Shown here: piece after piece, positions 18,753 through 39,391 of the stretch
Layout of the letters: each line of letters opens with the position of its first letter
Numbering within the stretch: the first letter of the stretch is position 1
From: Alphaproteobacteria bacterium
GTDB lineage: Bacteria; Pseudomonadota; Alphaproteobacteria; Rickettsiales; UBA3002
DNA: 64,000 nucleotides
Direction: 5' to 3'
NCBI GenBank assembly: GCA_033763655.1
Contig: JANRKD010000001.1
Location: 64,023-128,022 of the forward strand
Translations under genes and position numbers: made by a program
Notes under the pieces: generated by a model
What the model saw: only the letters and a program-made list of their open reading frames with translations
What the model was told of the DNA's origin: nothing
Database searches by the model: none

Positions 18753-20335
<1,583 letters not shown>

Positions 20336-24167: not shown

Positions 24168-25810
24168 TTAGGCGCTGAATCCGAGTGCGCGACGCTGATT
24201 TTGCCAGTCGAGCGGGATATCGATCTGGCGAATGAGCATCTGTGTCGTGAGATGGGCGGGCTGCTTACCTGCCATGATGGCCCCTACAATATCGGGGGCC
24301 AGAAATGCCAAGGGCATGATTTTCTTCACATAGCTATCGCTGACATCGTTACGCGATGCAATCTCCGCCATGGATGCGATGGTGCCTGATAGCAGCGCCT
24401 CACTCCACGCATGCGCACGCGCGATGGCATTGACGAGGGTGGAATCGATAGTGGCAGCAGATGCCATTCCACCTTCGATAACTAAACGCATCTCATGACC
24501 ACGCCGCTTGATCCGCATCGGCGTGTCACGCATCATGGAGATGTTATCGTTACCCGCTTCTGAAGATACGAGCGATGCCAACGATAGCTGGACCTGCAAC
24601 CCATCCTGCCGCAGCACTACTCGGTGCACGAACGCTTCAAAAACATGGCCTTGATATTGAGCTCCATCATGTGCCTTGGCTAGCAACGCTGGGATGAGAT
24701 GCGACGGAATGTTTGCTGCCTGCAATGCATCTACCATCGCATCGCGGTCTTTCAGCATGGCTTGGGCAATACTAAAGATGGTGTTTTCGATGGCTTGGCC
24801 TGGCAGGCGCCAGCCATTCGGAGCATCCTCTTTCGTACCCGTCTTCAACGATTGAGAAATATAGTAGCGATACCGCCGCCCCTTTTTGTTGGCATGAACA
24901 ACAACCAGCGCTTCACCGGTTGCAGCATCGAACAGCTTACCATTGAGGGATCCATCTTCAGTCTTTCGCGATTGTTCGACGATGCCCGCCCGATTGCTTA
25001 TGAGCTTTTGCTGCACCTGATCCCATAGCTGCGGGTCAATAATGCCCTTATATGGCAGGTGCCCTTAAAGCGGATCTGGCCAGCATAGAGGGGATTGGAC
25101 AACAGATGATACAACGCCCCACGGGAGAATGGCATCCCGCCAGGACGAGTATCGCTATCGCGCGCTTTGGAGTGGATGCCATTCGTACATAGATCATCGC
25201 GTAGCTGGCGGACGCCACCCAACTCCAGATACCGTGTAAAGATATGGCGGATGGTTGCCGCCTCTGCTGGATTGATAACCAGTTTCTTTTCCACGATATC
25301 ATACCCTAACGGCGCATAGCCGCCCATCCACATGCCCTTCTTTTTAGAGGCAGCGATCTTATCGCGGATGCGCTCACCAGTGACTTCGCGCTCAAATTGT
25401 GCGAAGGATAGTAGAACATTGAGCGTCAATCGCCCCATGGAGCTGGTAGTATTGAACTGCTGCGTCACCGATACGAAGGACACGCCACGCTTGTCGAACA
25501 CCTCGACCATCTTTGCGAAGTCGTGCAGCGAGCGTGACAACCGATCAACCTTGTACACGACGATCACGTCGATCTTACCTGCCTCAATATCATGCATCAG
25601 CAGCTGCAGCGCCGGGCGGTTCATCGTGCCACCGCTATACCCACCATCGTCGTAGGTCGTTTTTACCAGCTGCCAACCTTCATGCTTCTGGCTTTTGATA
25701 AAGGACTCGCTCGCCTCACGCTGCGCATGCAGTGAGTTAAAATCCTGCTCCAATCCTTCCTCGGATGATTTTCGGGTATAAATAGCGCAACGGATGATCT
25801 TGGTAGTCAT
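24168..25810 (-). pseudogene. Large serine recombinase disrupted by one frameshift (near 25050)
   Basis: The N-terminal ORF (CAIYTRKSSEEG, VYKVDRLSRS, recombinase domain) ends in out-of-frame residues. Shifting one frame restores GIIDPQLWDQVQQKL, which continues into ORF 24168-25016. Confidence 0.8.
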
Positions 25811-26253
25811 GCGGCCTCTTTCTTCAGCCCGAAGAATAATGGACCTGACCATTTGGCGCCGGTGATGACCTGCGCGATTTGCGACAGCGAACGATAGCGT
25901 TGGCCTTGATAGTACACCCCATCATCGAGCACCGTCACCTCATGGCTCACCCCATGCCATTCTCGCAGCAGCCGGGTGCCGGGTTTAACTTGCGTAACCG
26001 ACACTGCTGTTGCACGAGCTGCATGGCCATCTTCAGCAATTTTTATTAGATAGCGCTGCATGGATGGCTTCAACCCACCCAATGCTTGCTCCTGCATGTG
26101 GTAGGCAAGTGCACGTAGCATCAGGGGGTGGCTGATACTGCGAGGAGGCTCAGTACCATAAGCCGTTTGCCATGCAGCAGTCAGCGCTGCTCGGTCTAGG
26201 CTTGGCAGCCTCGCCAAATCACTGGCGAGGCTGCAGTTATTACGACGCTTCAT
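25807..26253 (-). CDS. DUF2924-like protein
   Basis: REWHGVSHEVTVLDDGVYYQGQRYRSLSQIAQVITGAKWSGPLFFGL. ATGA overlap with the recombinase start. Confidence 0.7.
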   Translation of the reverse strand: MKRRNNCSLASDLARLPSLDRAALTAAWQTAYGTEPPRSISHPLMLRALAYHMQEQALGGLKPSMQRYLIKIAEDGHAARATAVSVTQVKPGTRLLREWHGVSHEVTVLDDGVYYQGQRYRSLSQIAQVITGAKWSGPLFFGLKKEAA

Positions 26254-26998: not shown

Positions 26999-27739
26999 GT
27001 GTTCTCGCAACATGTCACAGAAGAGATCGGCCACTATGTGTATCGACTGATTGATCCACGTAACGGTGAAACATTCTATGTCGGCAAAGGTATTGGCAAC
27101 CGAGTATTCGCCCATATCAAAGGTGAGGCGGCAACTAACGGCGACGAACTTTCACAAAAATTACAGCGTATTCGAGAAATTCGGCTCGATGGTTTCGAAG
27201 TCGGGCACATTATCCATCGACATGGTCTTGACGAAAGAACGGCTTACGAAGTTGAGGCGGCACTGATCGATGCGTATCCCGCTGTTACCAACTCAGTCGG
27301 CGGTCATTATTCTGACGAACGTGGCGTTATGCATGCAACGCAGATCGTGCAGCAATATGGGGCACCGGAAGCAGTATTTAGGCACCGAGCCATTATGATT
27401 ACGATCAATCACACTGCGGCGGAACGCAGCATTTATGACGCCGTGCGCTATGCCTGGAAAATCGACCCGAAAAAGGCAAGAGAAGCCGAGTTAGTGCTAG
27501 CGATTCGTCACGGAATCATCGTGGGTGTTTTTGAGCCGAGTGAATGGCTGCCCGCAACGCCGGAAAACTTCCCCAGCACGCTAGAGATTTGGGAGGGGCG
27601 TTGGGGTTTTATCGGTGAAGAAGCACCCCCAGAGATAACGCGCCTTTATCTCCGCCACCGTATCCCCGACAGCATGCGCAAACGTGGTGCCGCCAATCCT
27701 GTTCGTTATGTAAATCCCTCCGCCGATTCTGGGGTATAA
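26999..27739 (+). CDS. GIY-YIG nuclease-domain protein with uncharacterised C-terminal domain
   Basis: YVYRLIDPRNGETFYVGKGIGNRVFAH (GIY...YIG...R), later YEVEAALID. GTG start. Confidence 0.75.
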   Translation: MFSQHVTEEIGHYVYRLIDPRNGETFYVGKGIGNRVFAHIKGEAATNGDELSQKLQRIREIRLDGFEVGHIIHRHGLDERTAYEVEAALIDAYPAVTNSVGGHYSDERGVMHATQIVQQYGAPEAVFRHRAIMITINHTAAERSIYDAVRYAWKIDPKKAREAELVLAIRHGIIVGVFEPSEWLPATPENFPSTLEIWEGRWGFIGEEAPPEITRLYLRHRIPDSMRKRGAANPVRYVNPSADSGV

Positions 27740-27741
27740 TC

Positions 27742-28677
27742 ATGCAAGTCACCGCAACAACAGGCCGCTATATCAAACTGGGCAGTAGCGGCAAATGGGA
27801 GCAGTTGTGCCTGCAAGATGGCACATTGCGCCTCGGGTATTATGAGGCGCCACATTCACCTGCTGTGGCGGGTGATAAGGAAGCAATCAAAGCAGCCTAT
27901 GCCTATCTTGATGGTAGCGTGGCGAGCGACAATGCGCGGCAAGTGCTACAGTTTTATGATCCTTCTGACACGGTGATTTGGATCACCTTCGCAGATGGAT
28001 TTCTATGGTGGTGTAAAGCAGCACCAGAAGTAGAATATTTTGGCAACGATCGTGCACTATACACCGATGGCAGCCGATTGCGCCGAGCCATCGACGGCTG
28101 GAGCAACCGCACACTTCAGGGCAAACCACTGCGGATGATGGAGCTGAAGGGCGAACTCACAAAAACCTCTGCCTACCGCAAAACCATCTGCGATTTGAAG
28201 CCGCATCTATTGGCCTACTTACTGCGCAAAATTAACGACGAAGCGCTGCCTGAAATTATTGCAGCGCAGCAGGCCATGAACGACCTCCAGGTCTCCATGC
28301 GCACGATGATCGCCATGCTACATTGGCGGGACTTTGAGCTGCTTGTGGAGTTGATATTCAGCCACAGCGGTTGGCAACGCGTCAGTGTCGTTGGCGAGAC
28401 TATGAAAACGACCGACATAGAACTCCGCCTGCCTATCACCAGCGAGCGCGCCATGGTGCAGATTAAATCCGAAACCACCCAAGCGGAGTTCAATGAATAT
28501 CTGACTGCCTTTGAACGATGGGAGATGCAGCGTTTATTCTACATCTATCACACAGCCAAAGTGCCGCTAATATCAGGCACGCATGATCCTCGTGTTACTC
28601 TCATTGGTCCAGATCAGTTAGCCTCGCTCGTGTTGCGCGCGGGCCTCGTTGAGTGGGTGATGGAGAAGGCGGGGTAG
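27742..28677 (+). CDS. Protein with C-terminal Mrr-like restriction-endonuclease (PD-(D/E)xK) domain
   Basis: WRDFELLVELIFSHSGWQRVSVVG...TDIELRL...AMVQIKS matches the Mrr catalytic-domain pattern. The N-terminal 200 aa are unknown. Starts 2 nt after the GIY-YIG gene. Confidence 0.65.
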   Translation: MQVTATTGRYIKLGSSGKWEQLCLQDGTLRLGYYEAPHSPAVAGDKEAIKAAYAYLDGSVASDNARQVLQFYDPSDTVIWITFADGFLWWCKAAPEVEYFGNDRALYTDGSRLRRAIDGWSNRTLQGKPLRMMELKGELTKTSAYRKTICDLKPHLLAYLLRKINDEALPEIIAAQQAMNDLQVSMRTMIAMLHWRDFELLVELIFSHSGWQRVSVVGETMKTTDIELRLPITSERAMVQIKSETTQAEFNEYLTAFERWEMQRLFYIYHTAKVPLISGTHDPRVTLIGPDQLASLVLRAGLVEWVMEKAG

Positions 28678-29113
28678 AGTTTATTTTACCAAGCAACTTG
28701 GTAAAGGCGTCTAGTTCCTCATCCGTCAGACTATTCAAACCTTTATCAAAAGCCTCACTTTGCTGTTTTTGTAGTATCGCTTGATCTGAAATCCCCTTCT
28801 CCTCCACGACCATAAGTAATGAAACCAACATATTGGCTGCACGTAGATCTCCCTTCGCTGCCTTTTGAGCCAGGCTTTTTGCCGAAACGACTATTAGGGG
28901 CAGCGTAAGTGTTCGTGTTCCATCATTCACTGGAACCTCTCGGTATGCTTCCCTGGCAATGATGGTAAGCACGCTATCTTCCTTTGGCTTGTTAATAGTC
29001 CCCTTTGGTCGCCCCGTGCGGTTACCAGAATGCCCCTTCTTGAATTGAGTATCCTTCGGGGGCTTGCAATAGCCTACCTTATAGCGCCCGCTGGGCTGTT
29101 TCTTTTTGCTCAT
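28601..29113 (-). CDS. DUF5681-like protein
   Basis: KKGHSGNRTGRPKGT motif. ATGA overlap with the upstream methyltransferase gene. The 3' end overlaps the convergent Mrr-like gene by 77 nt. Confidence 0.6.
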   Translation of the reverse strand: MSKKKQPSGRYKVGYCKPPKDTQFKKGHSGNRTGRPKGTINKPKEDSVLTIIAREAYREVPVNDGTRTLTLPLIVVSAKSLAQKAAKGDLRAANMLVSLLMVVEEKGISDQAILQKQQSEAFDKGLNSLTDEELDAFTKLLGKINSTPPSPSPTQRGPRATRARLTDLDQ

Positions 29114-30417
29114 ACGACCCCCGTTGCATCGCGATGTACGCATTCCGCTTCATCATGCGCGAAGGTCTCCCAGCGCGCGATGATGCGATCGCAATAAATG
29201 GGGTCGATTTCGCCGAGAAAGCCGCGACGACCAGTCTTGTGCGCAGCAATCAAGGTCGACCCACTACCACCGAATGGATCGAGCACGATGTCGCCGCGCT
29301 TGGAGACATCCTTGATGGCATCGGCGATCATCTGCACCGGTTTGACGGTCGGGTGTAGCGCCAGCTCCTCCATACGCCCAGCCCGCAGTGAATTCACACC
29401 ACGATATTGCCACACGTTGGTGCGATAGCGGCCGTTCTGGCCGAGCTCGAAACTGTTGGTATGAGCGGCGGTACCATGCTTGAAGGCAAAGACCAGTTCA
29501 TGGCGTGATCGATAAAAGGTTCCCATGCCACCATTATCCTTCGCCCAGACGATAAGGTTCTTGAGCTCGGTATATGCGGTTTTGCCAGCTGCCAATAGTT
29601 CCTGCATGTGCCGCCAATCCATACAGATGTAATGAATCGCTCCATCCACGCTATGCGCGGTCATATTCTCGAAGGCAGTTTGCAAAAATTGCGTGAATTG
29701 CGCCTCCGACATTTCCCCCGAAGCCATGGCAAACTCGCGATGCTTGATGCTGCCAGAACCGCATACATGGCCATCGACAGGCACATTGTATGGGGGATCG
29801 GTGAAGACCATCTGCGCCTTGTTGCCATCCATTAGGGTAGCAATCACTTTGGGATCAAGCGCATTGCCACAGATGAGGCGGTGACGCCCCAGTTGCCAGA
29901 TATCACCCACCGCGCAGCGTGCCTTGGTTGCATCTGACGGAGGTAGCTGGTCTTCGCGGGGATTCCCAACTTCTTCATTCGGATTGCCCTCGATAATGTG
30001 GTCCACCTCAGCGATCGAGAAGCCAGTAATGTCGATGGTAAACTCATCCTGGAGCAGCAATTCCTTTAGCTCTTCAGCGAGCAGTTCTTCATCCCATCCA
30101 GCGTTGAGTGCCAGTTTGTTATCAGCCAGCACATAGGCGCGCTTCTGCTGTGGCGTCATATGCTCCAGACGGATACAAGGCACTTCGCGCAAGGTGAGTA
30201 ATTTCGCCGCTTCCACACGCCCGTGCCCCGCAAGAATGGTATTCTCACTATCGATAAGCACTGGATTGGTGAACCCAAACCGTGTGATGCTATCTGCGAT
30301 CTGGCGCACCTGTTTCTTTGAATGGGTGCGGGCGTTATTTTTCCAAGGCTTCAGCGAAGCAATTGGCAGTTGTTCAATATGGTGGTCCATAAATTCTCCT
30401 ATCGTAAGACGTGCCAA
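29110..30417 (-). CDS. ParB-N-domain-fused DNA methyltransferase (N6A/N4C type)
   Basis: ParB-like N-terminus (ILAGHGR), TDPPYN catalytic motif, DPFGGSGST SAM-binding motif. Confidence 0.9.
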   Translation of the reverse strand: MARLTIGEFMDHHIEQLPIASLKPWKNNARTHSKKQVRQIADSITRFGFTNPVLIDSENTILAGHGRVEAAKLLTLREVPCIRLEHMTPQQKRAYVLADNKLALNAGWDEELLAEELKELLLQDEFTIDITGFSIAEVDHIIEGNPNEEVGNPREDQLPPSDATKARCAVGDIWQLGRHRLICGNALDPKVIATLMDGNKAQMVFTDPPYNVPVDGHVCGSGSIKHREFAMASGEMSEAQFTQFLQTAFENMTAHSVDGAIHYICMDWRHMQELLAAGKTAYTELKNLIVWAKDNGGMGTFYRSRHELVFAFKHGTAAHTNSFELGQNGRYRTNVWQYRGVNSLRAGRMEELALHPTVKPVQMIADAIKDVSKRGDIVLDPFGGSGSTLIAAHKTGRRGFLGEIDPIYCDRIIARWETFAHDEAECVHRDATGVV

Positions 30418-30723
30418 TGGGCACAGAGAAATGAACCCTGCGCATTAGCACATGTTAAAAATGTTGATGAAAATCAGGATGCTAAAAAGCCATGCTTTGC
30501 ATGGCTACCGCAGACCGATCAGTTTGTATGATCAGTCGCATGCCTCATTATATACATCATTTTATGCACCCCCGAAAGTAATTTGTGCGCCTGAATGATC
30601 TCGTTGGGTGCCACTTTATAAGTGATCATCAGGAGAGAAACCAGAGTTAAAATAAGGATATTCAAAACGATAAGCGCCTGATAGAAGAGATCTACAATTT
30701 CTAGTTGCTTATAGGGTTTCTAT

Positions 30724-32394
30724 ATGGCCTCTCACATGGGCGTGCAGACGCTAGCCACAAGTCGTAATTCGCAAGTCGAGTATATGGTTCATTTCGTTCT
30801 AGAAAGAGCGATGAAAGCACTTAGTGATAAAGGCCTTATTAGCAGTGCTAGGGTATCAGCCCAAAAGCAATACGTCTCCGAAATTGCTAGTGATATTTGG
30901 GATCATATTGCTACTGGCGTACAAAAAAATGGAAAGCCATTTCAATTATGGTGTCAAACTACATGTTACAAAGGAAATGGCACTGGCGCTCCCGAACCTA
31001 ATAAAACATATGAAGTTCGAGAAACGTTGGTTGAGGGCATTACAATTCGAGATCTCGTAAATCTGCAGAACGAGAATGAAGTTAGAACTCTGCATTTTAC
31101 TGTGGGAGATAGCGATTATACATACAAATGGTTTCTTGGCCTCAAATCAGCGAGCTATGATAAATCACTTTATGTCGGAAAAAAGGGCCTAGACGTTTTC
31201 GAGCTCCTAGATGCCGCCCTGCGCGGTGCCATCACAGAATCGGCAAAGGCTACGCTTTTGGAGAAATGCATTGTTGAGAAGAGTGAGCTCGGCAATCTTA
31301 TTTTGAATGCAGCCAATGAGCTGTTTGCTTGGTTCGTCGAAGGGGGGATGCCCAAGTCCAATATAGCCGATTTACAATGGCAACTGGTAAATACAGAACA
31401 TAAAAGTCATGCAGGAAAATGGCCAGATTTCTCCAAGTTAAAAGGGGAAGATATTAAGGGACGGACCAATAGGTTTCTGTTCGACGCCGACATCGTCGAA
31501 TCAGATACGCTAATACCGCGTGCTGCGGCTAAAATTCTTGAACGAAAACCATTCCTTTCGGCCGCATTAAAAGCCGTTGCAGATTGGCCCACGTTTGAGA
31601 CAGAGGTCCAGAGAATCTATGAACGGTCTGGTAGCATAGAAGATTTTGTGCGCAGACTATGGAATGCACCATCACCTTTACATTTATTAACTAGGCGCAT
31701 TCTTTTGAGAATTCATACTGGCGATAGTATTGCATACGTTCAAGATAGAGACGTCGCGGGTATTTCTGAGCATAATTTATATGCAGGATCGCATTCTGAA
31801 AAACAGGTGAGATTGATATGTAACCGAATTGTAGACGATATTTCTAAAGGCGGCATAACCACATCCCTAATGCTCATGAATAGTATATCGACGCAGGGAA
31901 AAAGAATTGTCAATCAGGCGCGGTGGTTTGAAGCAAAGAATGGCACTGAATTAAAACCTAGCTTTGAATATGCCGAAATGGCATTGCAGTCTGCGGGCTT
32001 TAAGGTGCTATCGCCAGCAGCTGCTAAATTCAAAGCCAATGGATATCATGGCGAAATTACCGTCGACAATGTAAGGCCATATACAAATCTGAAGGCAGTT
32101 TGTAATGCTGACGGAAAAATACTGGCCATTTTAAAGGCCAAATTCTTCCGAATTCAGGAATTCCCTAGAAGATGTAAGGAAGAATCATTTGTTGGACTAA
32201 CGCTAAAGTATAAATTTGAAAATGGTGCATTCGTACCGCGGCATAATATTCCTGTTGTTATGTTTGTGGACATGGCAGTTGATTGTAAACCACCAGAATA
32301 TGCCGTTAAGCGGCTAATAAGCTTTGGATGGGATGTTGTTTTCTCTACTGATGAACTAATTTCTTTGATGCATAAAATTGATCAGGGTTCATAG
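30724..32394 (+). CDS. Uncharacterised 556-aa protein (candidate nuclease/effector of the adjacent methyltransferase locus)
   Basis: Long clean ORF in very AT-rich DNA. No motif I can name. First gene of a two-gene operon convergent on the MTase operon. Confidence 0.7.
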   Translation: MASHMGVQTLATSRNSQVEYMVHFVLERAMKALSDKGLISSARVSAQKQYVSEIASDIWDHIATGVQKNGKPFQLWCQTTCYKGNGTGAPEPNKTYEVRETLVEGITIRDLVNLQNENEVRTLHFTVGDSDYTYKWFLGLKSASYDKSLYVGKKGLDVFELLDAALRGAITESAKATLLEKCIVEKSELGNLILNAANELFAWFVEGGMPKSNIADLQWQLVNTEHKSHAGKWPDFSKLKGEDIKGRTNRFLFDADIVESDTLIPRAAAKILERKPFLSAALKAVADWPTFETEVQRIYERSGSIEDFVRRLWNAPSPLHLLTRRILLRIHTGDSIAYVQDRDVAGISEHNLYAGSHSEKQVRLICNRIVDDISKGGITTSLMLMNSISTQGKRIVNQARWFEAKNGTELKPSFEYAEMALQSAGFKVLSPAAAKFKANGYHGEITVDNVRPYTNLKAVCNADGKILAILKAKFFRIQEFPRRCKEESFVGLTLKYKFENGAFVPRHNIPVVMFVDMAVDCKPPEYAVKRLISFGWDVVFSTDELISLMHKIDQGS

Positions 32395-32397
32395 CTT

Positions 32398-33240
32398 ATG
32401 TATTTAGAAAAACTTAGAGCCTTATGTGCGACCACTGCTCCTATCTTTCAAGATATAATTACGCATAATTCTGCGATTACTTCTTCAACGTGGAACGCTA
32501 AGGTAGAGACTGGAAAGGCTGTAGAATTTTATAGTCTGTGCTGTCTGGCTGCAGGTTTAGAAAAATTAGGAATCGGAATCTCAATACCAGCAATATATCT
32601 TGAGCACCCTGATTTATTTTATTTGCGCAATATTCTACCTCGTCACCATGGCACTCAAGCAGGTCATTCTGCAGCAATAAATAGCATTCCTTTGAGCGAT
32701 AGGTTTGTTGCGGCTCTTACACCCAAATTTATATTCGAAACGGTCGGTTCAAAATATGGGATCTACAGAGAAGGTTTTCCTATTCATCTCATTGAACACT
32801 TAAATAAGGGTGAAGAAGAATATCTAGATCGACCAGATGTATTGATTTGTAGAGGAACAATGACGAGCAAACTAATTAGCTCGGAAAGAATTGCCTTCAC
32901 TTATGAATCCCAAAGCGGCCGATGCGAAGGAATTCTGCGAATCAAAAACGATGCGTTAATTCCGATTATTTCGTATGACTCCAATTTGCTTAATGTCCCT
33001 GTGGTGGGGATCATCGAATGCAGTGTTAGCAAGGGTGATACAAAGGCCGAAGAGCAATTACGACGATACCTCGCCATTTACAGTGGCGCAACATCACCAG
33101 TATCATTACTAATCAATGGTAGGCGCCAGAAATGTCCTGCATACACACACGAAGCGTTTATCGATATGGACTTTGATAATGCAGAAGCCATAACAGGCTT
33201 TACTGCTGTTATTGATCGATTCAGCAAAGCGATTATCTGA
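32398..33240 (+). CDS. Uncharacterised 280-aa protein, possible PD-(D/E)xK nuclease
   Basis: Starts 3 nt after the previous stop. YLDRPDVLICRG ... VVGIIECSVSKGD is a weak PD...E..K-like pattern. Confidence 0.6.
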   Translation: MYLEKLRALCATTAPIFQDIITHNSAITSSTWNAKVETGKAVEFYSLCCLAAGLEKLGIGISIPAIYLEHPDLFYLRNILPRHHGTQAGHSAAINSIPLSDRFVAALTPKFIFETVGSKYGIYREGFPIHLIEHLNKGEEEYLDRPDVLICRGTMTSKLISSERIAFTYESQSGRCEGILRIKNDALIPIISYDSNLLNVPVVGIIECSVSKGDTKAEEQLRRYLAIYSGATSPVSLLINGRRQKCPAYTHEAFIDMDFDNAEAITGFTAVIDRFSKAII

Positions 33241-33243
33241 TAA

Positions 33244-34359
33244 TTAGAGATAGGAAAAAATTTGCCGGAATAATTGCAACGCAAAGAGCGGCGGCACGGC
33301 ATTGCCAATTTGCCTCGCCTGAGAGGTGGTTTTACCATAGAAGTTTATCCAATCAGGAAACGTCTGAAGTCTGGCTTGCTCGCGAATAGTTAGTCTTCTT
33401 GTTCCCTTGAGAGTGACTTTTTTTTGGCGAGAAGTGGATGTTTTGGGCGCATCCAGCCATGCTGGATGGCAATTCCGGAGAAGCTCCTGCAATTCATTTT
33501 GTGGCGCTCTGAATGCAATATCCTCCAGAGGTACAGGGCCAGGAACAAAGGCGGATTGCGCAGGCTCTTCACAAAGAGCAAATTCATCACCTCGAACACG
33601 AAGAGTAAACGCGGGCTCAGTATGAGCATTCCTATTTCTCGGTCCCCGCATTTGCGAATTTGCACGATGCGCAAAGAAATTACCCTGTGGCAGCACAATG
33701 TCCCCTAGTGCGTCATTGACAGAGTTATACGCATGAGCCTTGTCACAGGGGGCTATCTTCTTTCTTGGATCATAGCAAAATGCTTCAGGCCAAACGAAGT
33801 CTATGCCGCATCGGTTGCCTACGAGAATTGCTCGCTTCCGAAGCTGCGGCACGCCAAATTCTGCCATATTTACGACTTTGTAGTCTACCTTATACCCTAT
33901 GGATGCGAAATCCTCTAAAATTTGCCGTAGGATTATGCCTTGGCCAATATTTGTGATGCCTTCCACGTTTTCTAAGACAAACCATTTTGGCTGATAGAAT
34001 TTAACAATCTCTACAAAATGTTTGTATAAGTGATTCCGTGGGTCATCCACAAACCGTAATCCCCGAGCCAAAGAAAATCCCTGACAGGGCGGGCCACCGA
34101 TAATTACGTCAACATCACCTTTACGACTTTTGGGTTTCCAATTGCTGATATTTGCACATGCGACATCATCTGCATAAGGAAAGATAGATTGATATGTCTT
34201 AATCGAATCAGAATCAAAATCGACTGCTCCTAGAGGCTGGCCACCTGCGATAGCGAAACCCACACTTAGGCCTCCGGCTCCTGAAAATAAATCAAGACAG
34301 GTTGGTTTTTGTTTAAGAGGTTGATGAATATCCTCTAATATTGCGGCCATTTTGTTCAT
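33244..34359 (-). CDS. DNA cytosine-5 methyltransferase
   Basis: LFSGAGG (motif I), GGPPCQGFS (IV), ENV (VI), QIGNAVPP (X). Confidence 0.95.
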   Translation of the reverse strand: MNKMAAILEDIHQPLKQKPTCLDLFSGAGGLSVGFAIAGGQPLGAVDFDSDSIKTYQSIFPYADDVACANISNWKPKSRKGDVDVIIGGPPCQGFSLARGLRFVDDPRNHLYKHFVEIVKFYQPKWFVLENVEGITNIGQGIILRQILEDFASIGYKVDYKVVNMAEFGVPQLRKRAILVGNRCGIDFVWPEAFCYDPRKKIAPCDKAHAYNSVNDALGDIVLPQGNFFAHRANSQMRGPRNRNAHTEPAFTLRVRGDEFALCEEPAQSAFVPGPVPLEDIAFRAPQNELQELLRNCHPAWLDAPKTSTSRQKKVTLKGTRRLTIREQARLQTFPDWINFYGKTTSQARQIGNAVPPLFALQLFRQIFSYL

Positions 34360-36215
34360 AATGATTCACCATAAAATTCTTCGACAGCTTGGTCTAATAG
34401 GGACTTAGATTCAAGTGTTTCCCCGTGCTGGATAATTGATGTCACAAACCCGACTATCTTGGCTCGAGCTGCGCTCTCAACCTGAAAATGTTTGGGTAAT
34501 GGAAAATCTTTTACAAACGTTTTCTTAAATCTGAATCTTCCTTGTGCTTTTAAATTTCCAACGCTCGAACAGCGATTTGAAAAATACACTTTAGCCATTT
34601 CACTGTTAAGTATGCCTAGCAATGCCAAGTCATTTGAATCAATGAAATATGCCCCATCGGCAACTAAAGTTCCTTCGGTACAAATGGAGAATCTTTGTTT
34701 GGCGGAAAGATCGGGAAAAATGATTTTCTCCTGCAACATATCTTTATAGTAAGAGCAGGCTCTTAAACGATACCACTTCTCAGCAGAATCAACCTCGTTC
34801 CGTTTTTCTAAGATACCGCGATACTTTTCTAGATACTGCAAAAGCTCCCGCGGAGGAATAATAGAATCTTTTGGTATAAAAAGCAGATGGCTCAATTTCT
34901 TGACGCCATGCCAACTTAAGATATTGGATGGAAGGACCACAGGTCTGATCCAATCTTTCTTAATATCCGCGCTGAAATCAGCGACCTGCTCTTCATTCAA
35001 ATAGAATGCTTCAGAATAGCCTGTTCTAATGCCAGAAAAAACAGTTATTCCGAATTCTGATAATGGCTTTGTATTTTTGAGAAAGCCATCCATCTTCTTA
35101 AAACTGACCATGTCGGAATGGAAAGACCAGCCGTGCGAATCTGACATATCCGCATGAACATCCAGCATTGAAGCGAGGCTAGTCGAGAGTTGTTCTAGAT
35201 CATCTGTCTTATTCACTTCGCAATATTTTATGGTGCTATTTGGGGAATCTGTTTTTGACAGTGCATAAATGGCGGTGTGAACGCTTGCTCCACTAAATAC
35301 TGGAGTTTCACCTAAATCTATCAGTGTAGCTAGATTCGCATTCTTTTTGATAAATTTTCTTACGTTCGCACTGCTTGTCCCGCGAAGAAACCCTGCTGGA
35401 GTAATAAATGCTAAGACTCCATTATTTTTTAGGCAGTTAATGCTGCTGGATATGAAGTAATTATAAAGATCCGCGGAACCATAAAACGATTCTGGGAAAC
35501 TGAGCTTTAAAGAATTTCGATAAGACGCAGATAGGCGCGTTGACCTTACATATGGGGGGTTTCCGATAACAAAATCGTAGGTTGGCTTAGTGCTTAGAAG
35601 ATCGCTCGATTCCTTATTACGCTCCAGAAAATCGCCGCACTCGAAAGTCAGCCTACCTGATTTAATATATTCTTCAATATCTAGCTTATTTCTTTCTAAT
35701 TCAATCTTGATGTTGCAGAGGCTTAAAAAGACTGCGCTAGGGGAAAGATCATTAATCGCTATTATAGGCAGATTATCAATTTCTTTTGGATAAATGCCAA
35801 GATATGCCTCGATTAATGCTAAGGGAAACACCCCTGCTCCAACGCATGGGTCGAGCCAATTTAATTCCCGAATATCATAACGTGCCTCAGATACAATTTT
35901 ACGCGTCTCTAGTGCTAACGAAACGATCAGATTGGCAACATTCCGTGGCGTTTCCACTACCCCATTATTCAGTCGGCTTCCGCTCCATGACTCATCGCCA
36001 AAAAACAAGCGAGCTATTGAATCGTATGATTGTCCTTTTAGAACAACTAACCGAAGCAATTCTATGAATGTTGCGGGAGCAATAAGATCCAACCTTTGTA
36101 TGACTTCCAGGGACCTCTCAATAGTATTGAAAGATGTTGATGCATGCGTTTGCTTTCGGCCTGCACCTAGCCCATCAGGAATGACGACCCGAACTCGATT
36201 CATCAAGGCTGTCAT
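34356..36215 (-). CDS. N6-adenine DNA methyltransferase (gamma-class, Eco57I/TaqI-like architecture)
   Basis: LDPCVGAGVF (motif I) followed by VIGNPPYV (motif IV), with a long C-terminal target-recognition region. 4-nt overlaps with both neighbours. Confidence 0.85.
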   Translation of the reverse strand: MTALMNRVRVVIPDGLGAGRKQTHASTSFNTIERSLEVIQRLDLIAPATFIELLRLVVLKGQSYDSIARLFFGDESWSGSRLNNGVVETPRNVANLIVSLALETRKIVSEARYDIRELNWLDPCVGAGVFPLALIEAYLGIYPKEIDNLPIIAINDLSPSAVFLSLCNIKIELERNKLDIEEYIKSGRLTFECGDFLERNKESSDLLSTKPTYDFVIGNPPYVRSTRLSASYRNSLKLSFPESFYGSADLYNYFISSSINCLKNNGVLAFITPAGFLRGTSSANVRKFIKKNANLATLIDLGETPVFSGASVHTAIYALSKTDSPNSTIKYCEVNKTDDLEQLSTSLASMLDVHADMSDSHGWSFHSDMVSFKKMDGFLKNTKPLSEFGITVFSGIRTGYSEAFYLNEEQVADFSADIKKDWIRPVVLPSNILSWHGVKKLSHLLFIPKDSIIPPRELLQYLEKYRGILEKRNEVDSAEKWYRLRACSYYKDMLQEKIIFPDLSAKQRFSICTEGTLVADGAYFIDSNDLALLGILNSEMAKVYFSNRCSSVGNLKAQGRFRFKKTFVKDFPLPKHFQVESAARAKIVGFVTSIIQHGETLESKSLLDQAVEEFYGESL

Positions 36216-36463
36216 TGAAGATTACCAGATTTGATTTTTTGATTATTAATCCACGCTTCTAAGTCGTCTTTGTGAAAGCGCCATGCATTTCCTACTTTGA
36301 AGCTAGGCACTTTACCTTCTGCGGCAAATCGGTAAGCAGTTTTTTCAGCGATTTTTGAGTATCCCGCGAGCTCCTTAACAGTCATGATCTCGTTGTCTGG
36401 CATAAAAACCTGCACATAATGGCCGCTAGGGTTGAAAATAGTGGAAACAGAATGAATCATCAA
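36212..36463 (-). CDS. Excisionase/MerR-type HTH DNA-binding protein (83 aa)
   Basis: MTVKELAGYSKIAEKTAYRFAAEGKVPSFKVGNAWRFHKDDLEAWI. Confidence 0.7.
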   Translation of the reverse strand: MMIHSVSTIFNPSGHYVQVFMPDNEIMTVKELAGYSKIAEKTAYRFAAEGKVPSFKVGNAWRFHKDDLEAWINNQKIKSGNLQ

Positions 36464-36468
36464 CTGCT

Positions 36469-37026
36469 TTAACCAGTGGCTCTCCCCAGCTGAATATCCA
36501 CGCCTGTCATACGGAATCTGTAGGTCAGCATTTCATTGCTGACCATATAATGATTGCCCGCCGTTTGGTTGCACCAACCCTTATTGCGAATGTGGATCAA
36601 GGCAGGGCGCGGAAGCAGCAATGCTCCGCCTAGCCAGTCAGCTTCATCTTCCTGTTCTTGATCGAAGTGACTAGGTATAAATGATCCGTCTGAGAGTTTG
36701 TGGCCTTTTGCTACACTATGGCCAAGAGTAATATGTGCCAACTCATGCATCAGAACGCTGTTGATGCGCGGTTTAGACTGGTTCGGATCATAAACGACCA
36801 TATGGTGCTTGCCTATTTTTAAGGTAAAGGCTGACCAAGCTTCTGCACTGAGCGCATCATTCAAAACTTTTTGAGGCACCTCAGGTATTTCAGCGGCGCT
36901 TTTGACCCTGATTTGTAGATGGGCGGCTAAGTCAAACGCGTTGAGTGGGGCGCACTCACCCAAGCCAAGCTGCTTACGCATCTCAACAGATCGTCGTTCG
37001 CTTTGCGCTTTGAAACCACGTTTCAA
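36469..37026 (-). CDS. ImmA/IrrE-family zinc metallopeptidase
   Basis: HELAHITLGH (HExxH) in a protein of about 185 aa, immediately downstream of an XRE gene. Confidence 0.85.
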   Translation of the reverse strand: MKRGFKAQSERRSVEMRKQLGLGECAPLNAFDLAAHLQIRVKSAAEIPEVPQKVLNDALSAEAWSAFTLKIGKHHMVVYDPNQSKPRINSVLMHELAHITLGHSVAKGHKLSDGSFIPSHFDQEQEDEADWLGGALLLPRPALIHIRNKGWCNQTAGNHYMVSNEMLTYRFRMTGVDIQLGRATG

Positions 37027-37028
37027 TG

Positions 37029-37388
37029 TTAATGGCTCGCAGACTTAATCTCTTTTTCAAAAGAATTATATGCTGCGAGGATTAGCTGACCGAGTGCTTG
37101 CGCAGTTTTCTGATCTTTTGATTTTTTAGCTTTAAACATAATCTGGATTTCGGGCGATGATGACTGACTGGGGGCATCGGCTCCAAAACCAAAATAGCCA
37201 CGCGCATCAAGCTCGGCCCACGCGAATACTTTCTTCATCGTTTCCATGTCCGACAAATGTCCGTTCTCTATTCTGGATAGCGTAGCGGGGCTTGTGCCTA
37301 TTTCTTTAGCGGCTGCTCGTATTCCCATGCTGCCGCGCTTACGTGCGATCAACTGGCCTATTTCTTCAGGGGATAAATCGGGGTTCAT
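37029..37388 (-). CDS. XRE-family HTH regulator
   Basis: GIRAAAKEIGTSPATLSRIENGH. Confidence 0.85.
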   Translation of the reverse strand: MNPDLSPEEIGQLIARKRGSMGIRAAAKEIGTSPATLSRIENGHLSDMETMKKVFAWAELDARGYFGFGADAPSQSSSPEIQIMFKAKKSKDQKTAQALGQLILAAYNSFEKEIKSASH

Positions 37389-37433: not shown

Positions 37434-37545
37434 CATGTGATAGTGTCTCATATGTAAGACAGTTTTCAGCCAACTCCTAGATCTCGCACGGGTCAAGCAA
37501 AAAGTGTCTTTCATCAAGAACTTCTAGAAACTTTTGGAGACCACG

Positions 37546-38232
37546 ATGACTAAAAATGACACAGAAGAAACAAATGCCAAGCAGTTATCCTTCGCGGTTA
37601 ACGGCACTAACTATAAATCCAACGACCCCGTCCTTTCAGGACGGGACATATTACAAAAAGCTGGCTTCAAGCCCGCCAGTGATCACGTGCTGATCGAGTT
37701 GACCAACCCTGGTACGCGTTCAGTAGGCCTCGATGAAACGGTCGATCTTGCAATCCCTGGCCGCGAAGCGTTCTACGCTTTTTCATCAGACCGCGTCTAT
37801 AACTTCACCGCTGATGAGCTCGGGTATGAATGGGGTGCCCCCACCATTGCCGAGGCCCAATTACGTGAGGTCACGGGTGCAGATGATAGCTTAGTCTTCG
37901 TTCTGGAGCGTACGGACCAGCCAGATCAGGTGATCGAAGAAGGCGAAAGCGTAGATTTGAACGCGAAAGGCACAGAGCATATTCGCACCAAGAAGCGCAT
38001 TGTGCACATCATCGTGAACGCACGCGAGTATGAAGTCCCGGGCCCCAAGATCACCTATGATCAAGTAGTGGCTCTTGCCTTCAACCCTGTGCCTAGCGGT
38101 CCAGAGGTTCTTTTTACCGTGACGTACCGCAAGGGGCCACCTCAAAACCCCAAAGGCACTTTGCCTGAGGGCCAGTCGGTAACCATCAAAAACGGGATGA
38201 TCTTCAATGTCACGCAGACCAATCGCTCGTAG
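37546..38232 (+). CDS. Tandem beta-grasp ('multiubiquitin'-like) protein
   Basis: Two internally similar segments (SFAVNGTNYKSNDPVLSGRDILQKAGF... and HIIVNAREYEVPGPKITYDQVVALAF...). C-terminus KNGMIFNVTQTNRS. Start placed at ATG 37546 (GGAGA SD) rather than TTG 37534. Confidence 0.7.
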   Translation: MTKNDTEETNAKQLSFAVNGTNYKSNDPVLSGRDILQKAGFKPASDHVLIELTNPGTRSVGLDETVDLAIPGREAFYAFSSDRVYNFTADELGYEWGAPTIAEAQLREVTGADDSLVFVLERTDQPDQVIEEGESVDLNAKGTEHIRTKKRIVHIIVNAREYEVPGPKITYDQVVALAFNPVPSGPEVLFTVTYRKGPPQNPKGTLPEGQSVTIKNGMIFNVTQTNRS

Positions 38233-39391
38233 TCCAGACCTTGTGCGCTTGCTGGCGGATGGATACCACATTTCCATCCGCCATGGCCACCTGGTAGCAA
38301 CGAAGATCCCGTACGTGAATGCCCAACGGCAAGTCAAATACGGTATCCTCGTTGCTCCACTAACGCTGCGTAATGATGTGGCGATCCAGCCCGCCGACCA
38401 CACCATAATGTTCGGGGGAGAATATCCCTGCGATCAACATGGCAAGCCTATCGAAGCTGTTCGCAATAACTCGGATAGTTTGCGAATAGCGGACGACTTG
38501 ATCGTGCAACACAGGTTCTCCGCCAAGCCCTCAGCGGGAAATTATGTGGATTTCCACGAAAAGATCGTAACGTACGCGGCGGCCATCAGTGGCCCCGCAC
38601 AGATCATCGATCCGGCCGTTAAGCCCAATCCTGGCGGCTTTGTACCCGCAGATGAAACGGAGGATTCCATCTTTAATTATATGGATACGGCTTCCCCGCG
38701 TGCAGAAATCACAGCCGTTACCGCCAAGCTTGAATGTCGTAAACTGGTGATCATCGGATTGGGTGGTACTGGGAGTTATATCCTCGACCAGGTCAGCAAA
38801 ACGCCTATAGAGCAGATCCATTGTTATGATGGCGATATCTTCGAGCAACATAATGCCTTTCGTGCCCCTGGTGCTGCCTCGGGCGCTGACCTAGAGGCAG
38901 TCATGAAGAAGGTCGACTACTACAAGGCCATATACTCAAAAATGCATCGCGGTATTGTTGCCCATCCGTACTATGTCGATGCCAGCAACATCGACGAACT
39001 GCGCGATGCCGACTTTGTCTTTATTTGTATCGATGACGGCATTGCGCGGCGGTTTATCATTGAGAAGCTGGAAGAGTTCGGCATCAGTTTTATCGATGTT
39101 GGCATGGGTGTTGTTCTTTGTAGTGACTCACTCGGTGGCATCGTACGCACAACGGCTAGCACCCCAACAGCGCGCGATCATGTTTGCAAACGCGTCTCGC
39201 TATCCAACACGGAGGATGATAAGAACGAGTATGATAAGAACATCCAAGTTGCCGACTTGAACGCTTTGAATGCGGCGCTGGCTGTTATCAAATGGAAGAA
39301 GTTAAGGGGGTTCTACGTGGACTTGGAGAAAGAGCACCACAGCACCTACACCATCGATGGCAACACCATCGACAGTGAAGACAGCAAATGA
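38207..39391 (+). CDS. ThiF/E1-like adenylyltransferase with an extra N-terminal domain of about 170 aa
   Basis: Rossmann motif LVIIGLGGTGSYILDQV and ThiF-like fold signature downstream. Overlaps the Ubl gene by 26 nt. Confidence 0.8.
   Translation: MSRRPIARSPDLVRLLADGYHISIRHGHLVATKIPYVNAQRQVKYGILVAPLTLRNDVAIQPADHTIMFGGEYPCDQHGKPIEAVRNNSDSLRIADDLIVQHRFSAKPSAGNYVDFHEKIVTYAAAISGPAQIIDPAVKPNPGGFVPADETEDSIFNYMDTASPRAEITAVTAKLECRKLVIIGLGGTGSYILDQVSKTPIEQIHCYDGDIFEQHNAFRAPGAASGADLEAVMKKVDYYKAIYSKMHRGIVAHPYYVDASNIDELRDADFVFICIDDGIARRFIIEKLEEFGISFIDVGMGVVLCSDSLGGIVRTTASTPTARDHVCKRVSLSNTEDDKNEYDKNIQVADLNALNAALAVIKWKKLRGFYVDLEKEHHSTYTIDGNTIDSEDSK

What the first reader, a model, noticed from the sequence alone, without database searches (positions are those of the whole stretch)
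30724..33240. AT-rich two-gene operon (556 aa + 280 aa) of unknown function, convergent on a double-methyltransferase operon
Seen in the sequence:
- Two tightly coupled ORFs (3-nt gap) lie in the most AT-rich DNA of the window.
- They have their own AT-rich upstream region of about 300 bp.
- Their stop codon is only 3 nt from the stop of a convergent m5C methyltransferase gene.
- I can name no catalytic motif in the 556-aa protein.
- The 280-aa protein has only a weak PD...E..K-like pattern (RPDVLI ... IIECSVSK).

Inference: the position opposite two methyltransferases, inside an island full of nucleases, makes these the likely effector half of a restriction-like or other anti-mobile-element system. 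Either each gene pairs with one MTase (nested R1 R2 > < M2 M1), or the two form a two-subunit effector. One m6A plus one m5C MTase is a known arrangement for asymmetric type IIS sites. A two-protein, motif-poor effector would not be the textbook version of that.
Basis: partly seen in the sequence, partly recalled or inferred. Interest (0 to 1): 0.75.

Follow-up and report, generated by a model that had tools for sequence, protein, structure and literature searches.

The report
Two-subunit restriction enzyme with two methyltransferases
The two unknown genes are most likely the large and small subunits of a restriction enzyme that always travels with two DNA methyltransferases as a mobile four-gene unit; this is a known kind of bacterial defence, but built from two protein families that nobody has annotated.

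Summary
ORFs of 556 aa (30724-32394) and 280 aa (32398-33240) lie 3 nt apart in the window's most AT-rich DNA. Their stop is 3 nt from the stop of a convergent m5C methyltransferase, which overlaps a gamma-class m6A methyltransferase.

Neither protein matches any Pfam, NCBIfam, PADLOC, PHROG or PDB sequence. Every homolog is labelled 'hypothetical'.

High-confidence AlphaFold models give nuclease folds:
- The large protein best matches BstEII and other PD-(D/E)XK nucleases.
- The small protein weakly matches BbvCI and NgoMIV, and keeps an invariant R-P-D...E-x-S-x-x-K...Q motif.

The four-gene order is kept in 27 of 30 loci with enough DNA, across at least six phyla and one plasmid. The three exceptions are two IS insertions and one methyltransferase swap. 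The m5C enzyme's recognition-region signature occurs in five species genomes, all carrying the large-subunit gene. A distant branch, including the archaeon Haloquadratum, keeps both subunits with an m6A plus an N4/N6 methyltransferase.

Verdict: a self-contained Type II (IIT/IIS-like) restriction-modification system for an asymmetric site, with a two-subunit endonuclease. It works like BsrDI/BtsI/BspD6I, but homology to them is unproven. It is a new member of a known kind, of moderate interest. The recognition site is unknown.

The parts
30418..30723 (.). 306-bp AT-rich intergenic region upstream of the endonuclease operon. It is the presumed promoter region and is shared divergently with an unrelated ParB-methyltransferase gene.
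   Evidence: Sequence read. The consensus scan placed none of its promoter-like sites in this interval and found no more sites in the region than in shuffles. A promoter here is therefore inferred from position only.
30724..32394 (+). Large endonuclease subunit, 556 aa.
- N-terminal PD-(D/E)XK-like domain: E19, D60, Q78-x-T80, E91-P-N93-K94.
- All-helical middle region of about 290 aa, a candidate DNA-recognition domain.
- Conserved C-terminal alpha/beta domain: K471-x-K473, E479, R482, R483, E486, D516.
   Evidence: - ORF.
- Homologs: 118; 89 representatives among 1.84 billion proteins.
- Model: pLDDT 92.6.
- Foldseek: BstEII at E = 9.6e-4, probability 1.0, then the Card1/Cdn1, AF1548, NucS and PaqCI nucleases.
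- Invariant residues.
- No curated family hit.
32398..33240 (+). Small endonuclease subunit, 280 aa. PD-(D/E)XK-like core with invariant E43, R145-P146-D147, E207, K212 and Q220. It is translationally coupled to the large subunit gene.
   Evidence: - ORF.
- Family alignment.
- Model: pLDDT 89.7.
- The top seven Foldseek hits are BbvCI subunits and NgoMIV, but weak (E = 0.013-0.11).
- 4 of 37 members hit Pfam NucS_C weakly.
- The archaeal partner protein aligns over the catalytic core at E = 3e-6.
- Junction distances.
33244..34359 (-). C5-cytosine DNA methyltransferase, 371 aa, convergent on the endonuclease operon. It presumably protects one strand of the site.
   Evidence: - Pfam DNA_methylase E = 1.4e-65; TIGR00675.
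- 52-68% identical across cassettes, with an invariant target-recognition region.
- That region's signature is found in only five species genomes, all of which also carry the large-subunit gene.
34356..36215 (-). Gamma-class N6-adenine DNA methyltransferase, 619 aa, with Eco57I-type catalytic domain, NPPY motif and TaqI_C specificity domain. It is first in the methyltransferase operon and overlaps the m5C gene by 4 nt. It presumably protects the other strand.
   Evidence: - Pfam Eco57I E = 1.8e-26, N6_Mtase, TaqI_C.
- Far below the curated cut-offs for BREX PglX, MADS2 and the Alw26I family.
- Conserved in the cassette. It is the one methyltransferase type also kept in the distant branch.
36212..36463 (-). 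Small HTH_17 (AlpA/excisionase-like) gene overlapping the m6A methyltransferase start by 4 nt. It is probably co-transcribed here, but it is context and not a core part of the cassette.
   Evidence: Pfam HTH_17 E = 1.4e-14. A homolog in the same position occurs in only one other locus, L037, and is absent from L001-L010.

Best explanation
Window 30724-36215 is a complete, horizontally mobile Type II restriction-modification cassette for an asymmetric DNA site.

**Modification.** Two monomeric methyltransferases, one m6A gamma-class and one m5C, each modify one strand.

**Restriction.** The two unknown genes encode a heteromeric endonuclease.
- The 556-aa large subunit is proposed to read the sequence through its helical middle region and cut one strand with its N-terminal PD-(D/E)XK-like site (D60, Q78, E91, K94).
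- The 280-aa small subunit is made in step with it by translational coupling. It docks on the large subunit and cuts the other strand with its own PD-(D/E)XK-like site (D147, E207, K212).
- Unmethylated incoming DNA is cleaved. Host DNA is protected.

**Shown:**
- the genes and their coupling;
- the nuclease-like folds;
- the conserved acidic and lysine residues;
- the tight two-way linkage to two methyltransferases across phyla.

**Inferred:**
- physical heterodimer formation;
- one strand cut per subunit;
- which domain reads DNA;
- the recognition site and cut positions, which remain unknown.

**Confidence.** About 0.85 that this is a restriction-modification system whose endonuclease is encoded by these two genes. 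About 0.6 for the specific model of a heterodimer with one strand cut per subunit.
For: **Gene linkage**
- The cassette order large-small >< m5C-m6A is found in 27 of 30 loci with at least 3.6 kb downstream.
- It occurs in Alphaproteobacteria (the window), Desulfobacterota, Oligoflexia, Cyanobacteria, Chloroflexota, a Lachnospiraceae MAG, Gammaproteobacteria and Betaproteobacteria, and on a Psychrobacter plasmid.
- The flanking genes are unrelated from locus to locus and rich in integrases and insertion sequences.
- The three exceptions are explained: IS21 and IS66 insertions, and a Thalassobacillus locus where m6A and N4/N6 methyltransferases sit upstream instead.
- Reciprocal test: the recognition-region signature of the m5C methyltransferase occurs in exactly five of 185,579 species genomes. 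All five carry the large-subunit gene.

**Distant branch**
- Members at 15-19% identity, including Haloquadratum walsbyi, keep the small gene, the large gene, an Eco57I-type m6A methyltransferase and an N4/N6 methyltransferase.
- The small partner is homologous over the catalytic core.

**Structure and residues**
- Large subunit: BstEII at probability 1.0, then other PD-(D/E)XK nucleases.
- Small subunit: the top seven hits are all restriction enzymes, the BbvCI subunits and NgoMIV.
- Invariant residues are listed.

**Coupling**
- 26 of 42 large-small junctions overlap by 1-14 nt, and 14 more have gaps of 6 nt or less.

**Precedent**
- Type IIT enzymes have a large recognition-plus-catalytic subunit, a small catalytic subunit and two methyltransferases, one per strand (PMC4081073; PMC1950550).
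Against: - There is no biochemical or genetic evidence.
- The small subunit's fold matches are weak (E about 0.01, TM 0.25-0.32).
- The Foldseek output does not say which region of the large subunit aligns to the nucleases. Placing it in the N-terminal domain rests on the secondary-structure order and on conserved residues.
- Both active-site motifs are non-canonical: Q/E-x-T in place of (D/E)-x-K in the large subunit, and E-x4-K in the small one.
No large-small fusion protein was seen in the hit lists.
- The strongly conserved C-terminal domain of the large subunit has no assigned role.
- REBASE could not be searched, so an already characterised member cannot be excluded.
Confidence: 0.7

Rival explanations
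1. Two independent restriction enzymes are nested with two independent methyltransferases (R1 R2 >< M2 M1). Each endonuclease is a separate homodimeric enzyme paired with one methyltransferase and one palindromic site.
For: The gene order is compatible with this. Both proteins have nuclease-like folds. There is no direct evidence of a complex.
Against: - No intact locus carries only one of the two genes with one methyltransferase.
- The two genes are translationally coupled in nearly all loci.
- When the m5C methyltransferase is replaced by an N4/N6 enzyme, both endonuclease genes and the m6A methyltransferase are all kept. This is not expected if the 280-aa or 556-aa protein were specifically the partner of the m5C enzyme.
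- Two unrelated systems would not be expected to stay joined across at least six phyla.
Confidence: 0.08
2. The 556-aa protein is a complete single-chain endonuclease. The 280-aa protein is a non-catalytic accessory, such as a controller, an assembly or specificity factor, or a degenerate nuclease used only as a dimerisation partner.
For: - The large subunit has two separately conserved charged clusters, one N-terminal and one C-terminal. These could be two catalytic sites, as in the single-chain enzymes BsmI and BsrI (PMC1950550).
- The small subunit's fold matches are weak.
Against: - D147, E207 and K212 are invariant in 37 members, and the pattern persists in the archaeal branch. This argues for a working active site.
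- The secondary-structure order around them fits a PD-(D/E)XK core.
- The C-terminal cluster of the large subunit is not in the canonical order for that fold.
Confidence: 0.15
3. This is not classical restriction. The methyltransferases are part of a larger methylation-associated defence (BREX, MADS or DISARM-like), or the pair is a toxin or abortive-infection effector that merely rides next to methyltransferases.
For: - The m6A methyltransferase gives weak hits to PglX and MAD2 models, and the HTH_17 gene gives a weak hit to mad1.
- The cassette sits in a defence island.
Against: - Those hits are far below the curated cut-offs: 64 bits against 500 for PglX, and 15.5 against 720 for MAD2.
- None of the other BREX, MADS or DISARM components lies in the conserved cassette, which is exactly four genes with variable flanks.
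- The HTH_17 gene is present in only 2 loci.
Confidence: 0.05

Closest known systems
BsrDI and BtsI heterodimeric Type IIS/IIT restriction enzymes (PMC1950550, PMC2909958)
   Same: - A large subunit carries one catalytic site near its N-terminus plus the recognition region, and a small subunit carries the second site.
- Two separate methyltransferases, one per strand. BsrDI has m6A plus m4C, the same pairing as in the Thalassobacillus and archaeal branches here.
- The site is asymmetric.
- In the large subunit the second conserved acidic/amide residue lies 13 positions after the first. Here that is Q/E78 to E91; in BsrDI it is E99 to Q112.
   Different: - Sizes: 556 + 280 aa here, against about 56 + 25 kDa for BsrDI and 38 + 19 kDa for BtsI.
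- Large-subunit motif: D60-X17-(Q/E)78-X12-E-P-N-K here, against D83-X15-E99-X12-QR in BsrDI.
- Small-subunit spacing: D147-X59-E207-X4-K212 here, against D67-X14-E82-x-K84 in BsrDI.
- The window's second methyltransferase is m5C.
BspD6I / BstNBI (large nickase of 604 aa plus small subunit of 186 aa)
   Same: A large sequence-reading subunit that cuts one strand works with a small non-specific catalytic subunit encoded immediately downstream (PMC4081073).
   Different: - Both BspD6I subunits have solved structures according to PMC4081073 (its reference 311), yet neither appeared among the fold matches.
- Profile searches of PDB sequences found nothing either.
BbvCI / Bpu10I (Type IIT heterodimers) and the NgoMIV/Cfr10I fold group
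   Same: - The small subunit's best fold matches are the BbvCI subunits and NgoMIV.
- Those are heterodimeric enzymes for an asymmetric site, working with two methyltransferases.
- There is a long insertion between the catalytic Asp and the Lys-bearing strand.
   Different: - The BbvCI subunits are similar in size (about 275-285 aa), and both read DNA. Here the subunits differ two-fold in size.
- The fold match is weak (E about 0.01, TM about 0.3).
- There is no sequence similarity.
BstEII (Type IIP, PDB 9ibq)
   Same: It is the best structural match of the large subunit (E = 9.6e-4, probability 1.0, TM 0.45 on the target).
   Different: - BstEII is a 286-aa protein.
- Identity is only 10%, and the match covers about half of the 556-aa protein.
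- From my own knowledge, not tested here: BstEII cuts a palindromic site.

Membership tests
Type II restriction-modification system | An endonuclease gene or genes adjacent to DNA methyltransferase gene(s) of matching specificity, inherited as a unit | tested here: met
   - 27 of 30 informative loci keep the four-gene cassette.
- The reciprocal linkage is 5 of 5 genomes.
- Flanking genes vary and are rich in mobile-element genes.
- Matching specificity itself was not tested.
Type II restriction-modification system | Sequence-specific, Mg-dependent cleavage of unmethylated DNA that is blocked by the cognate methylation | not testable with these tools
   This needs biochemistry or in vivo restriction assays.
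Type IIT (two different catalytic sites, asymmetric site) | Two different catalytic sites, on two subunits or two domains | tested here: inconclusive
   Both proteins have nuclease-like folds with invariant acidic and lysine residues. Catalysis by either is not shown.
Type IIT (two different catalytic sites, asymmetric site) | Accompanied by two separate methyltransferases, one per strand | tested here: met
   - m6A plus m5C in the window and 27 other loci.
- m6A plus N4/N6 in the Thalassobacillus and archaeal branches.
- Strand assignment is inferred.
BsrDI/BtsI/BsmI/BsrI family | N-terminal site PD-X13-17-E-X12-QR in the large subunit or domain | tested here: not met
   The large subunit has D60-X17-(Q/E)78-X12-E91-P-N-K94. 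The +13 spacing is shared, but QR is replaced by E-P-N-K (compared with PMC1950550).
BsrDI/BtsI/BsmI/BsrI family | Canonical PD-Xn-E-x-K with short spacing (about 14 aa) in the small subunit | tested here: not met
   The small subunit has D147-X59-E207-X4-K212, against D67/E82/K84 in BsrDI.
BsrDI/BtsI/BsmI/BsrI family | Detectable sequence or profile homology to family members | not testable with these tools
   The sequences DQ367879, DQ355163, AY079085 and DQ074451 cannot be fetched. No named relative appeared in any search.
PD-(D/E)XK nuclease superfamily | An alpha-beta-beta-beta-alpha-beta core, with Asp at the start of strand 2 and (D/E)-x-K on strand 3 | tested here: inconclusive
   - The fold matches are to PD-(D/E)XK nucleases, and the secondary-structure order fits.
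- The strand-3 motif is non-canonical in both proteins.
BREX / MADS methylation-associated defence | A PglX or MAD2 methyltransferase above the curated cut-off, together with the other system genes (PglZ, BrxC and others; mad3-8) | tested here: not met
   - 64 bits against a cut-off of 500 for PglX.
- 15.5 bits against a cut-off of 720 for MAD2.
- No other components are in the cassette.

The most novel reading that the evidence does not exclude
The pair founds an undescribed superfamily of two-subunit restriction endonucleases, spread across Bacteria and Archaea, that arose independently of BsrDI/BtsI, BspD6I and BbvCI.
- The large subunit has a non-canonical active site, D...(Q/E)-x-T...E-P-N-K.
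- Its conserved C-terminal domain completes or regulates the small subunit's site.
- On its own the large subunit would be a natural strand-specific nicking enzyme with a new recognition sequence.
Probability: 0.4. Interest if true: 0.5.

Novelty: new member of a known kind. Interest (0 to 1): 0.4.

Why it matters
**Annotation.** It assigns a function to two protein families that are 'hypothetical' in every database searched here. There are about 90 clusters at 50% identity for the large subunit, from Proteobacteria to haloarchaea. Annotators and defence-system finders currently see only two seemingly orphan methyltransferases at these loci (no PADLOC hit).

**Practical use.** Heterodimeric enzymes of this layout are the natural source of strand-specific nicking enzymes such as Nb.BsrDI, Nb.BtsI and Nt.BstNBI. 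A new family with a probably new asymmetric site could yield new ones.

**Evolution.** The system shows one endonuclease pair keeping its m6A methyltransferase while the second methyltransferase changes class between m5C and N4/N6.

It does not change the understanding of how restriction-modification works.

Tried and rejected
**Searches that found nothing**
- Single-sequence and profile searches of both proteins against Pfam, NCBIfam, PADLOC, PHROGs and PDB sequences found nothing meaningful.
- Scanning every family member against Pfam at E <= 1 gave only 4 of 37 weak NucS_C hits for the small subunit, and no consistent hit for the large one.
- A profile-profile comparison of the large and small families showed no relationship. 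The idea that the C-terminal domain of the large subunit is a copy of the small subunit has no sequence support.
- There were no phage homologs.
- No paper was found for plasmid pA22P5, for this locus in Haloquadratum, for the BstEII structure, or naming this family.

**Reciprocal scans that failed before one worked**
- Starting from the single m5C protein found nothing.
- Starting from the m5C alignment was swamped by generic m5C motifs, with all hits at 38% identity or less.
- A pattern specific to the recognition region replaced them.

**Other dead ends**
- The promoter and terminator scan gave no more sites than shuffled sequence.
- Model coordinates are not exposed, so the active-site geometry and the region aligned to BstEII could not be inspected.

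**Readings rejected**
- The small subunit as a Vsr-type mismatch endonuclease partnering the m5C enzyme: it persists where there is no m5C enzyme, and no Vsr structure appears among the fold matches.
- The HTH_17, ImmA and XRE genes or the ParB-methyltransferase as parts of the system: they are not conserved with the cassette.
Full report
**1. The observation**

The window has ORFs at 30724-32394 (+, 556 aa) and 32398-33240 (+, 280 aa). The stop of the first and the ATG of the second are 3 nt apart.

The stop of the second ends at 33240. The reverse-strand stop of a 371-aa gene begins at 33244. That gene overlaps, by 4 nt, a 619-aa gene on the same strand.

The bin 32001-33000 has the lowest GC of the window, 0.390. 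The block from 30 to 37 kb is 0.39-0.47, against 0.50-0.66 elsewhere. A 306-bp intergenic region precedes the first gene.

The ORFs are real genes:
- They have 118 and 53 homologs.
- They fold confidently, with pLDDT 92.6 and 89.7.

The public annotation is from an Alphaproteobacteria MAG, loci SFW64_00560 and SFW64_00565. It starts the large protein 20 codons too late, because the invariant residues A11, R14, N15 and E19 lie upstream of that start.

**2. The neighbours**

- The 371-aa protein is a C5-cytosine methyltransferase: Pfam DNA_methylase E = 1.4e-65, and TIGR00675.
- The 619-aa protein is a gamma-class N6-adenine methyltransferase with an Eco57I-type catalytic domain and a TaqI_C specificity domain.
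- Its scores against the BREX PglX, MADS2 and Alw26I-family models are far below the curated cut-offs.

**3. The two unknowns at sequence level**

Neither protein matches any model in Pfam, NCBIfam, PADLOC or PHROGs, or any PDB chain, whether searched as a single sequence or as a family profile.

Scanning every family member against Pfam at E <= 1 gave two results:
- four weak NucS_C hits for the small protein;
- nothing consistent for the large one.

Every homolog with a name is called 'hypothetical protein'. The large-subunit family is small, with 89 representatives at E <= 0.001 among 1.84 billion clustered proteins.

**4. Structure**

*Large protein.* Its model best matches the Type II enzyme BstEII (E = 9.6e-4, probability 1.0, TM 0.45 on the target). 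The next matches are Cdn1/Card1, AF1548, NucS/EndoMS, PaqCI and EcoO109I. From established knowledge, these are all PD-(D/E)XK nucleases.

The first 130 residues of the model have the order helix, three strands, helix, strand. The invariant residues fall on these elements:
- E19 on the first helix;
- D60 on the second strand;
- Q78-x-T80 on the third strand;
- E91-P-N93-K94 at the start of the next helix.

In the distant branch, Q78 is Glu ('LEVTHW...EEPNK').

Beyond this domain there is:
- an all-helical region of about 290 residues;
- a C-terminal alpha/beta domain with a second invariant cluster: K471-x-K473, E479, R482, R483, E486 and D516.

*Small protein.* Its model's top seven matches are all restriction enzymes, the BbvCI subunits and NgoMIV. 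They are weak (E = 0.013-0.11, TM 0.19-0.32). Its invariant residues fit a PD-(D/E)XK core with a long beta-hairpin insertion:
- E43 on a helix;
- R145-P146-D147 just before a strand;
- E207 on a strand;
- K212 just after that strand;
- Q220 on the following helix.

The Foldseek output does not show which residues align, and model coordinates are not exposed. The mapping of domains to these matches is therefore inferred.

**5. Comparative genomics**

This is the strongest evidence. I collected 55 loci encoding a relative of the large protein from species genomes and metagenomes. I searched their ORFs with family HMMs.

- Of the 30 loci with at least 3.6 kb downstream, 27 have the same four genes in the same order and orientation.
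- The three exceptions are an IS21-like insertion after the large gene (L016), an IS66-like insertion truncating the small gene (L017), and the Thalassobacillus locus L005. L005 has a gamma-class m6A and a beta-class N4/N6 methyltransferase upstream on the same strand.
- Of 12 shorter loci, 10 show the small gene as far as they reach. The other two are truncated remnants.
- Hosts span Desulfobacterota, Oligoflexia, Cyanobacteria, Chloroflexota, Bacillota, Gammaproteobacteria and Betaproteobacteria. One cassette is on a 17-kb Psychrobacter plasmid.
- Flanking genes differ everywhere and often include integrases or transposases.
- The large-small junction overlaps by 1-14 nt in 26 of 42 loci, and is a gap of 6 nt or less in 14 more.

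**6. The reciprocal test**

The cassette's m5C methyltransferases are 52-68% identical across phyla. The normally variable recognition region is invariant among them.

I back-translated H-R-A-N-x-x-M-R-G-P-R-N-R from that region into a DNA pattern. It matched five stretches in 185,579 species genomes. All five genomes carry the large-subunit gene.

In the Lachnospiraceae MAG the match lies on a second contig. That contig holds the m6A gene, the m5C gene and the C-terminal half of the small gene. It completes the cassette cut off at the end of L002.

Two earlier attempts at this test were uninformative.

**7. A deeper branch**

The profile search found full-length relatives of 537-596 aa at 15-19% identity. 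They include proteins of Haloquadratum walsbyi C23 and Halosegnis rubeus, all unnamed.

At their loci, a gene of about 250 aa of unknown function lies immediately upstream of the large gene. In Haloquadratum the two genes overlap by 8 nt. Both sit beside an Eco57I-type m6A methyltransferase and an N4/N6 methyltransferase.

The Haloquadratum small protein aligns with the 280-aa family over the catalytic core (hhalign E = 3.3e-6). It keeps F-R-E-G-x-P, R-P-D, E-x-S-x-x-K and Q. Two others align more weakly but show the same pattern.

The unit that persists over this distance is large subunit, small subunit, m6A methyltransferase and a second methyltransferase of varying class.

**8. Interpretation**

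Two nuclease-fold proteins are inherited with two monomeric methyltransferases as a mobile unit. This is the signature of a Type II system for an asymmetric site.

The review by Pingoud and colleagues defines Type IIT enzymes as having two different catalytic sites. It notes three further points (PMC4081073):
- They are generally accompanied by two methyltransferases, one per strand.
- In BsrDI, BtsI and BspD6I the larger subunit reads the whole sequence and cuts one strand.
- The smaller subunit in those enzymes only cuts the other strand.

I propose the same mechanism here. The large subunit would read DNA and cut with D60/Q78/E91/K94. The small subunit would cut with D147/E207/K212.

Heterodimer formation, strand assignment and the recognising domain are inferred. 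The role of the conserved C-terminal domain of the large subunit is open. It could be the docking surface for the small subunit. It could also supply part of the second site, as reported for BtsIB (PMC2909958).

**9. Comparison with BsrDI/BtsI**

The layout is the same. BsrDI even has m6A plus m4C methyltransferases, like the distant branch here.

The measured catalytic residues differ:
- BsrDI large subunit: D83, E99, Q112/R113.
- BsrDI small subunit: D67, E82, K84.

In the window's large subunit, QR is replaced by E-P-N-K, although the +13 spacing from the strand-3 residue is the same. In the small subunit, the Asp-to-Glu spacing is 59 residues instead of 14.

By these motif criteria the pair is not a member of that family. 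True remote homology could not be tested, because the sequences could not be retrieved.

**10. Rivals**

- *Two independent nested systems.* This is disfavoured by the unbroken co-occurrence, the coupling, and the retention of both genes when the m5C enzyme is swapped.
- *A single-chain enzyme with a non-catalytic helper.* This remains possible, since the large subunit has two conserved clusters. The invariant D/E/K of the small subunit argues against it.
- *A BREX or MADS-type system.* This is excluded by the scores and by the absence of the other components.
- *A Vsr-like role for the small protein.* This is excluded by its presence in loci without an m5C enzyme.

**11. Context**

The cassette lies in a low-GC element of about 30 kb. 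The element begins at tRNA-Ile (18753-18829) and contains two large serine recombinases. It also carries:
- a PD-T4-3 gene and an Mrr-like gene;
- a ParB-methyltransferase;
- an XRE/ImmA pair;
- a multiubiquitin/E1/DUF6527 operon;
- a zeta-toxin-like gene.

None of them is conserved with the cassette.

**12. Verdict**

It is a restriction-modification system of a known architectural class, built from two unannotated protein families with non-canonical active-site motifs. It is widely but sparsely distributed by horizontal transfer.

- Novelty: new member of a known kind.
- Interest: moderate (0.4). Its value lies in annotation and possible enzymology, and it brings no new principle.
- The main caveat is that REBASE could not be consulted.

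Noticed in passing
window 18753-20335 and 45704-47260: GC falls from about 0.62 to 0.39-0.55 between roughly 19 and 49 kb. tRNA-Ile (18753-18829) abuts a large serine recombinase gene (18764-20335, -), and a second one lies at 45704-47260 (-). This looks like an integrated mobile element carrying stacked defence genes.
   Followed up: partly
window 26999-28677: A 246-aa protein matches the PADLOC model PD-T4-3 at E = 8e-103. It is followed, 3 nt later, by a 311-aa protein with weak Mrr_cat and PDC-S02 hits. This is a separate candidate defence pair.
   Followed up: no
window 37534-39825: A three-gene operon encodes a multiubiquitin-domain protein (Multi_ubiq, E = 1.7e-42), a DUF6791-ThiF (E1-like) protein and a DUF6527 protein. 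It is a bacterial ubiquitin-like conjugation module inside the defence island.
   Followed up: no
window 36212-37388: XRE repressor (37029-37388), ImmA/M78 metallopeptidase (36469-37026) and HTH_17 (36212-36463) genes run straight into the m6A methyltransferase gene. The last overlaps its start by 4 nt, so here the methyltransferase operon may be under the control of the element's regulators. An HTH_17 gene in that position recurs only in L037.
   Followed up: partly
window 30724-30783: The public annotation of the large subunit (SFW64_00560, 536 aa) starts about 20 codons too late. Family-invariant residues A11, R14, N15 and E19 lie upstream of the annotated start.
   Followed up: yes
window 24168-25852 and 39827-40831: Two genes look split into adjacent or overlapping ORFs on the minus strand. 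One is a serine recombinase (24998-25852 plus 24168-25016). The other is a metallophosphatase-like gene (40439-40831 plus 39827-40429). They may be frameshifted pseudogenes or assembly errors.
   Followed up: no
L016 1287-4687; L017 2403-6827 (also L038): In these remnants the large-subunit gene is intact, while the small subunit and/or both methyltransferases have been replaced by IS21-like or IS66-like elements. If the large subunit alone only nicks DNA, as Nb.BtsI does, its survival without methyltransferases might be tolerated. The methyltransferases could also lie elsewhere in those genomes.
   Followed up: partly
L006 8303-16316: In the Chloroflexia genome both the large-subunit gene and the m6A methyltransferase gene are interrupted, each detected as two pieces separated by about 1 kb. 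This suggests a decaying copy of the cassette.
   Followed up: no
window 33244-34359 and alignment A4: The m5C methyltransferase's target-recognition region is invariant from Proteobacteria to Cyanobacteria and Chloroflexota, while the endonuclease subunits diverge to 28-55% identity. This implies one conserved recognition sequence for the whole m5C branch.
   Followed up: partly
window 29110-30417: A ParB_N-fused N4/N6 DNA methyltransferase (435 aa) with an adjacent DUF5681 gene is divergently transcribed from the cassette. It is a third methyltransferase in 7 kb. It is not conserved with the cassette and is probably an orphan belonging to the mobile element.
   Followed up: partly
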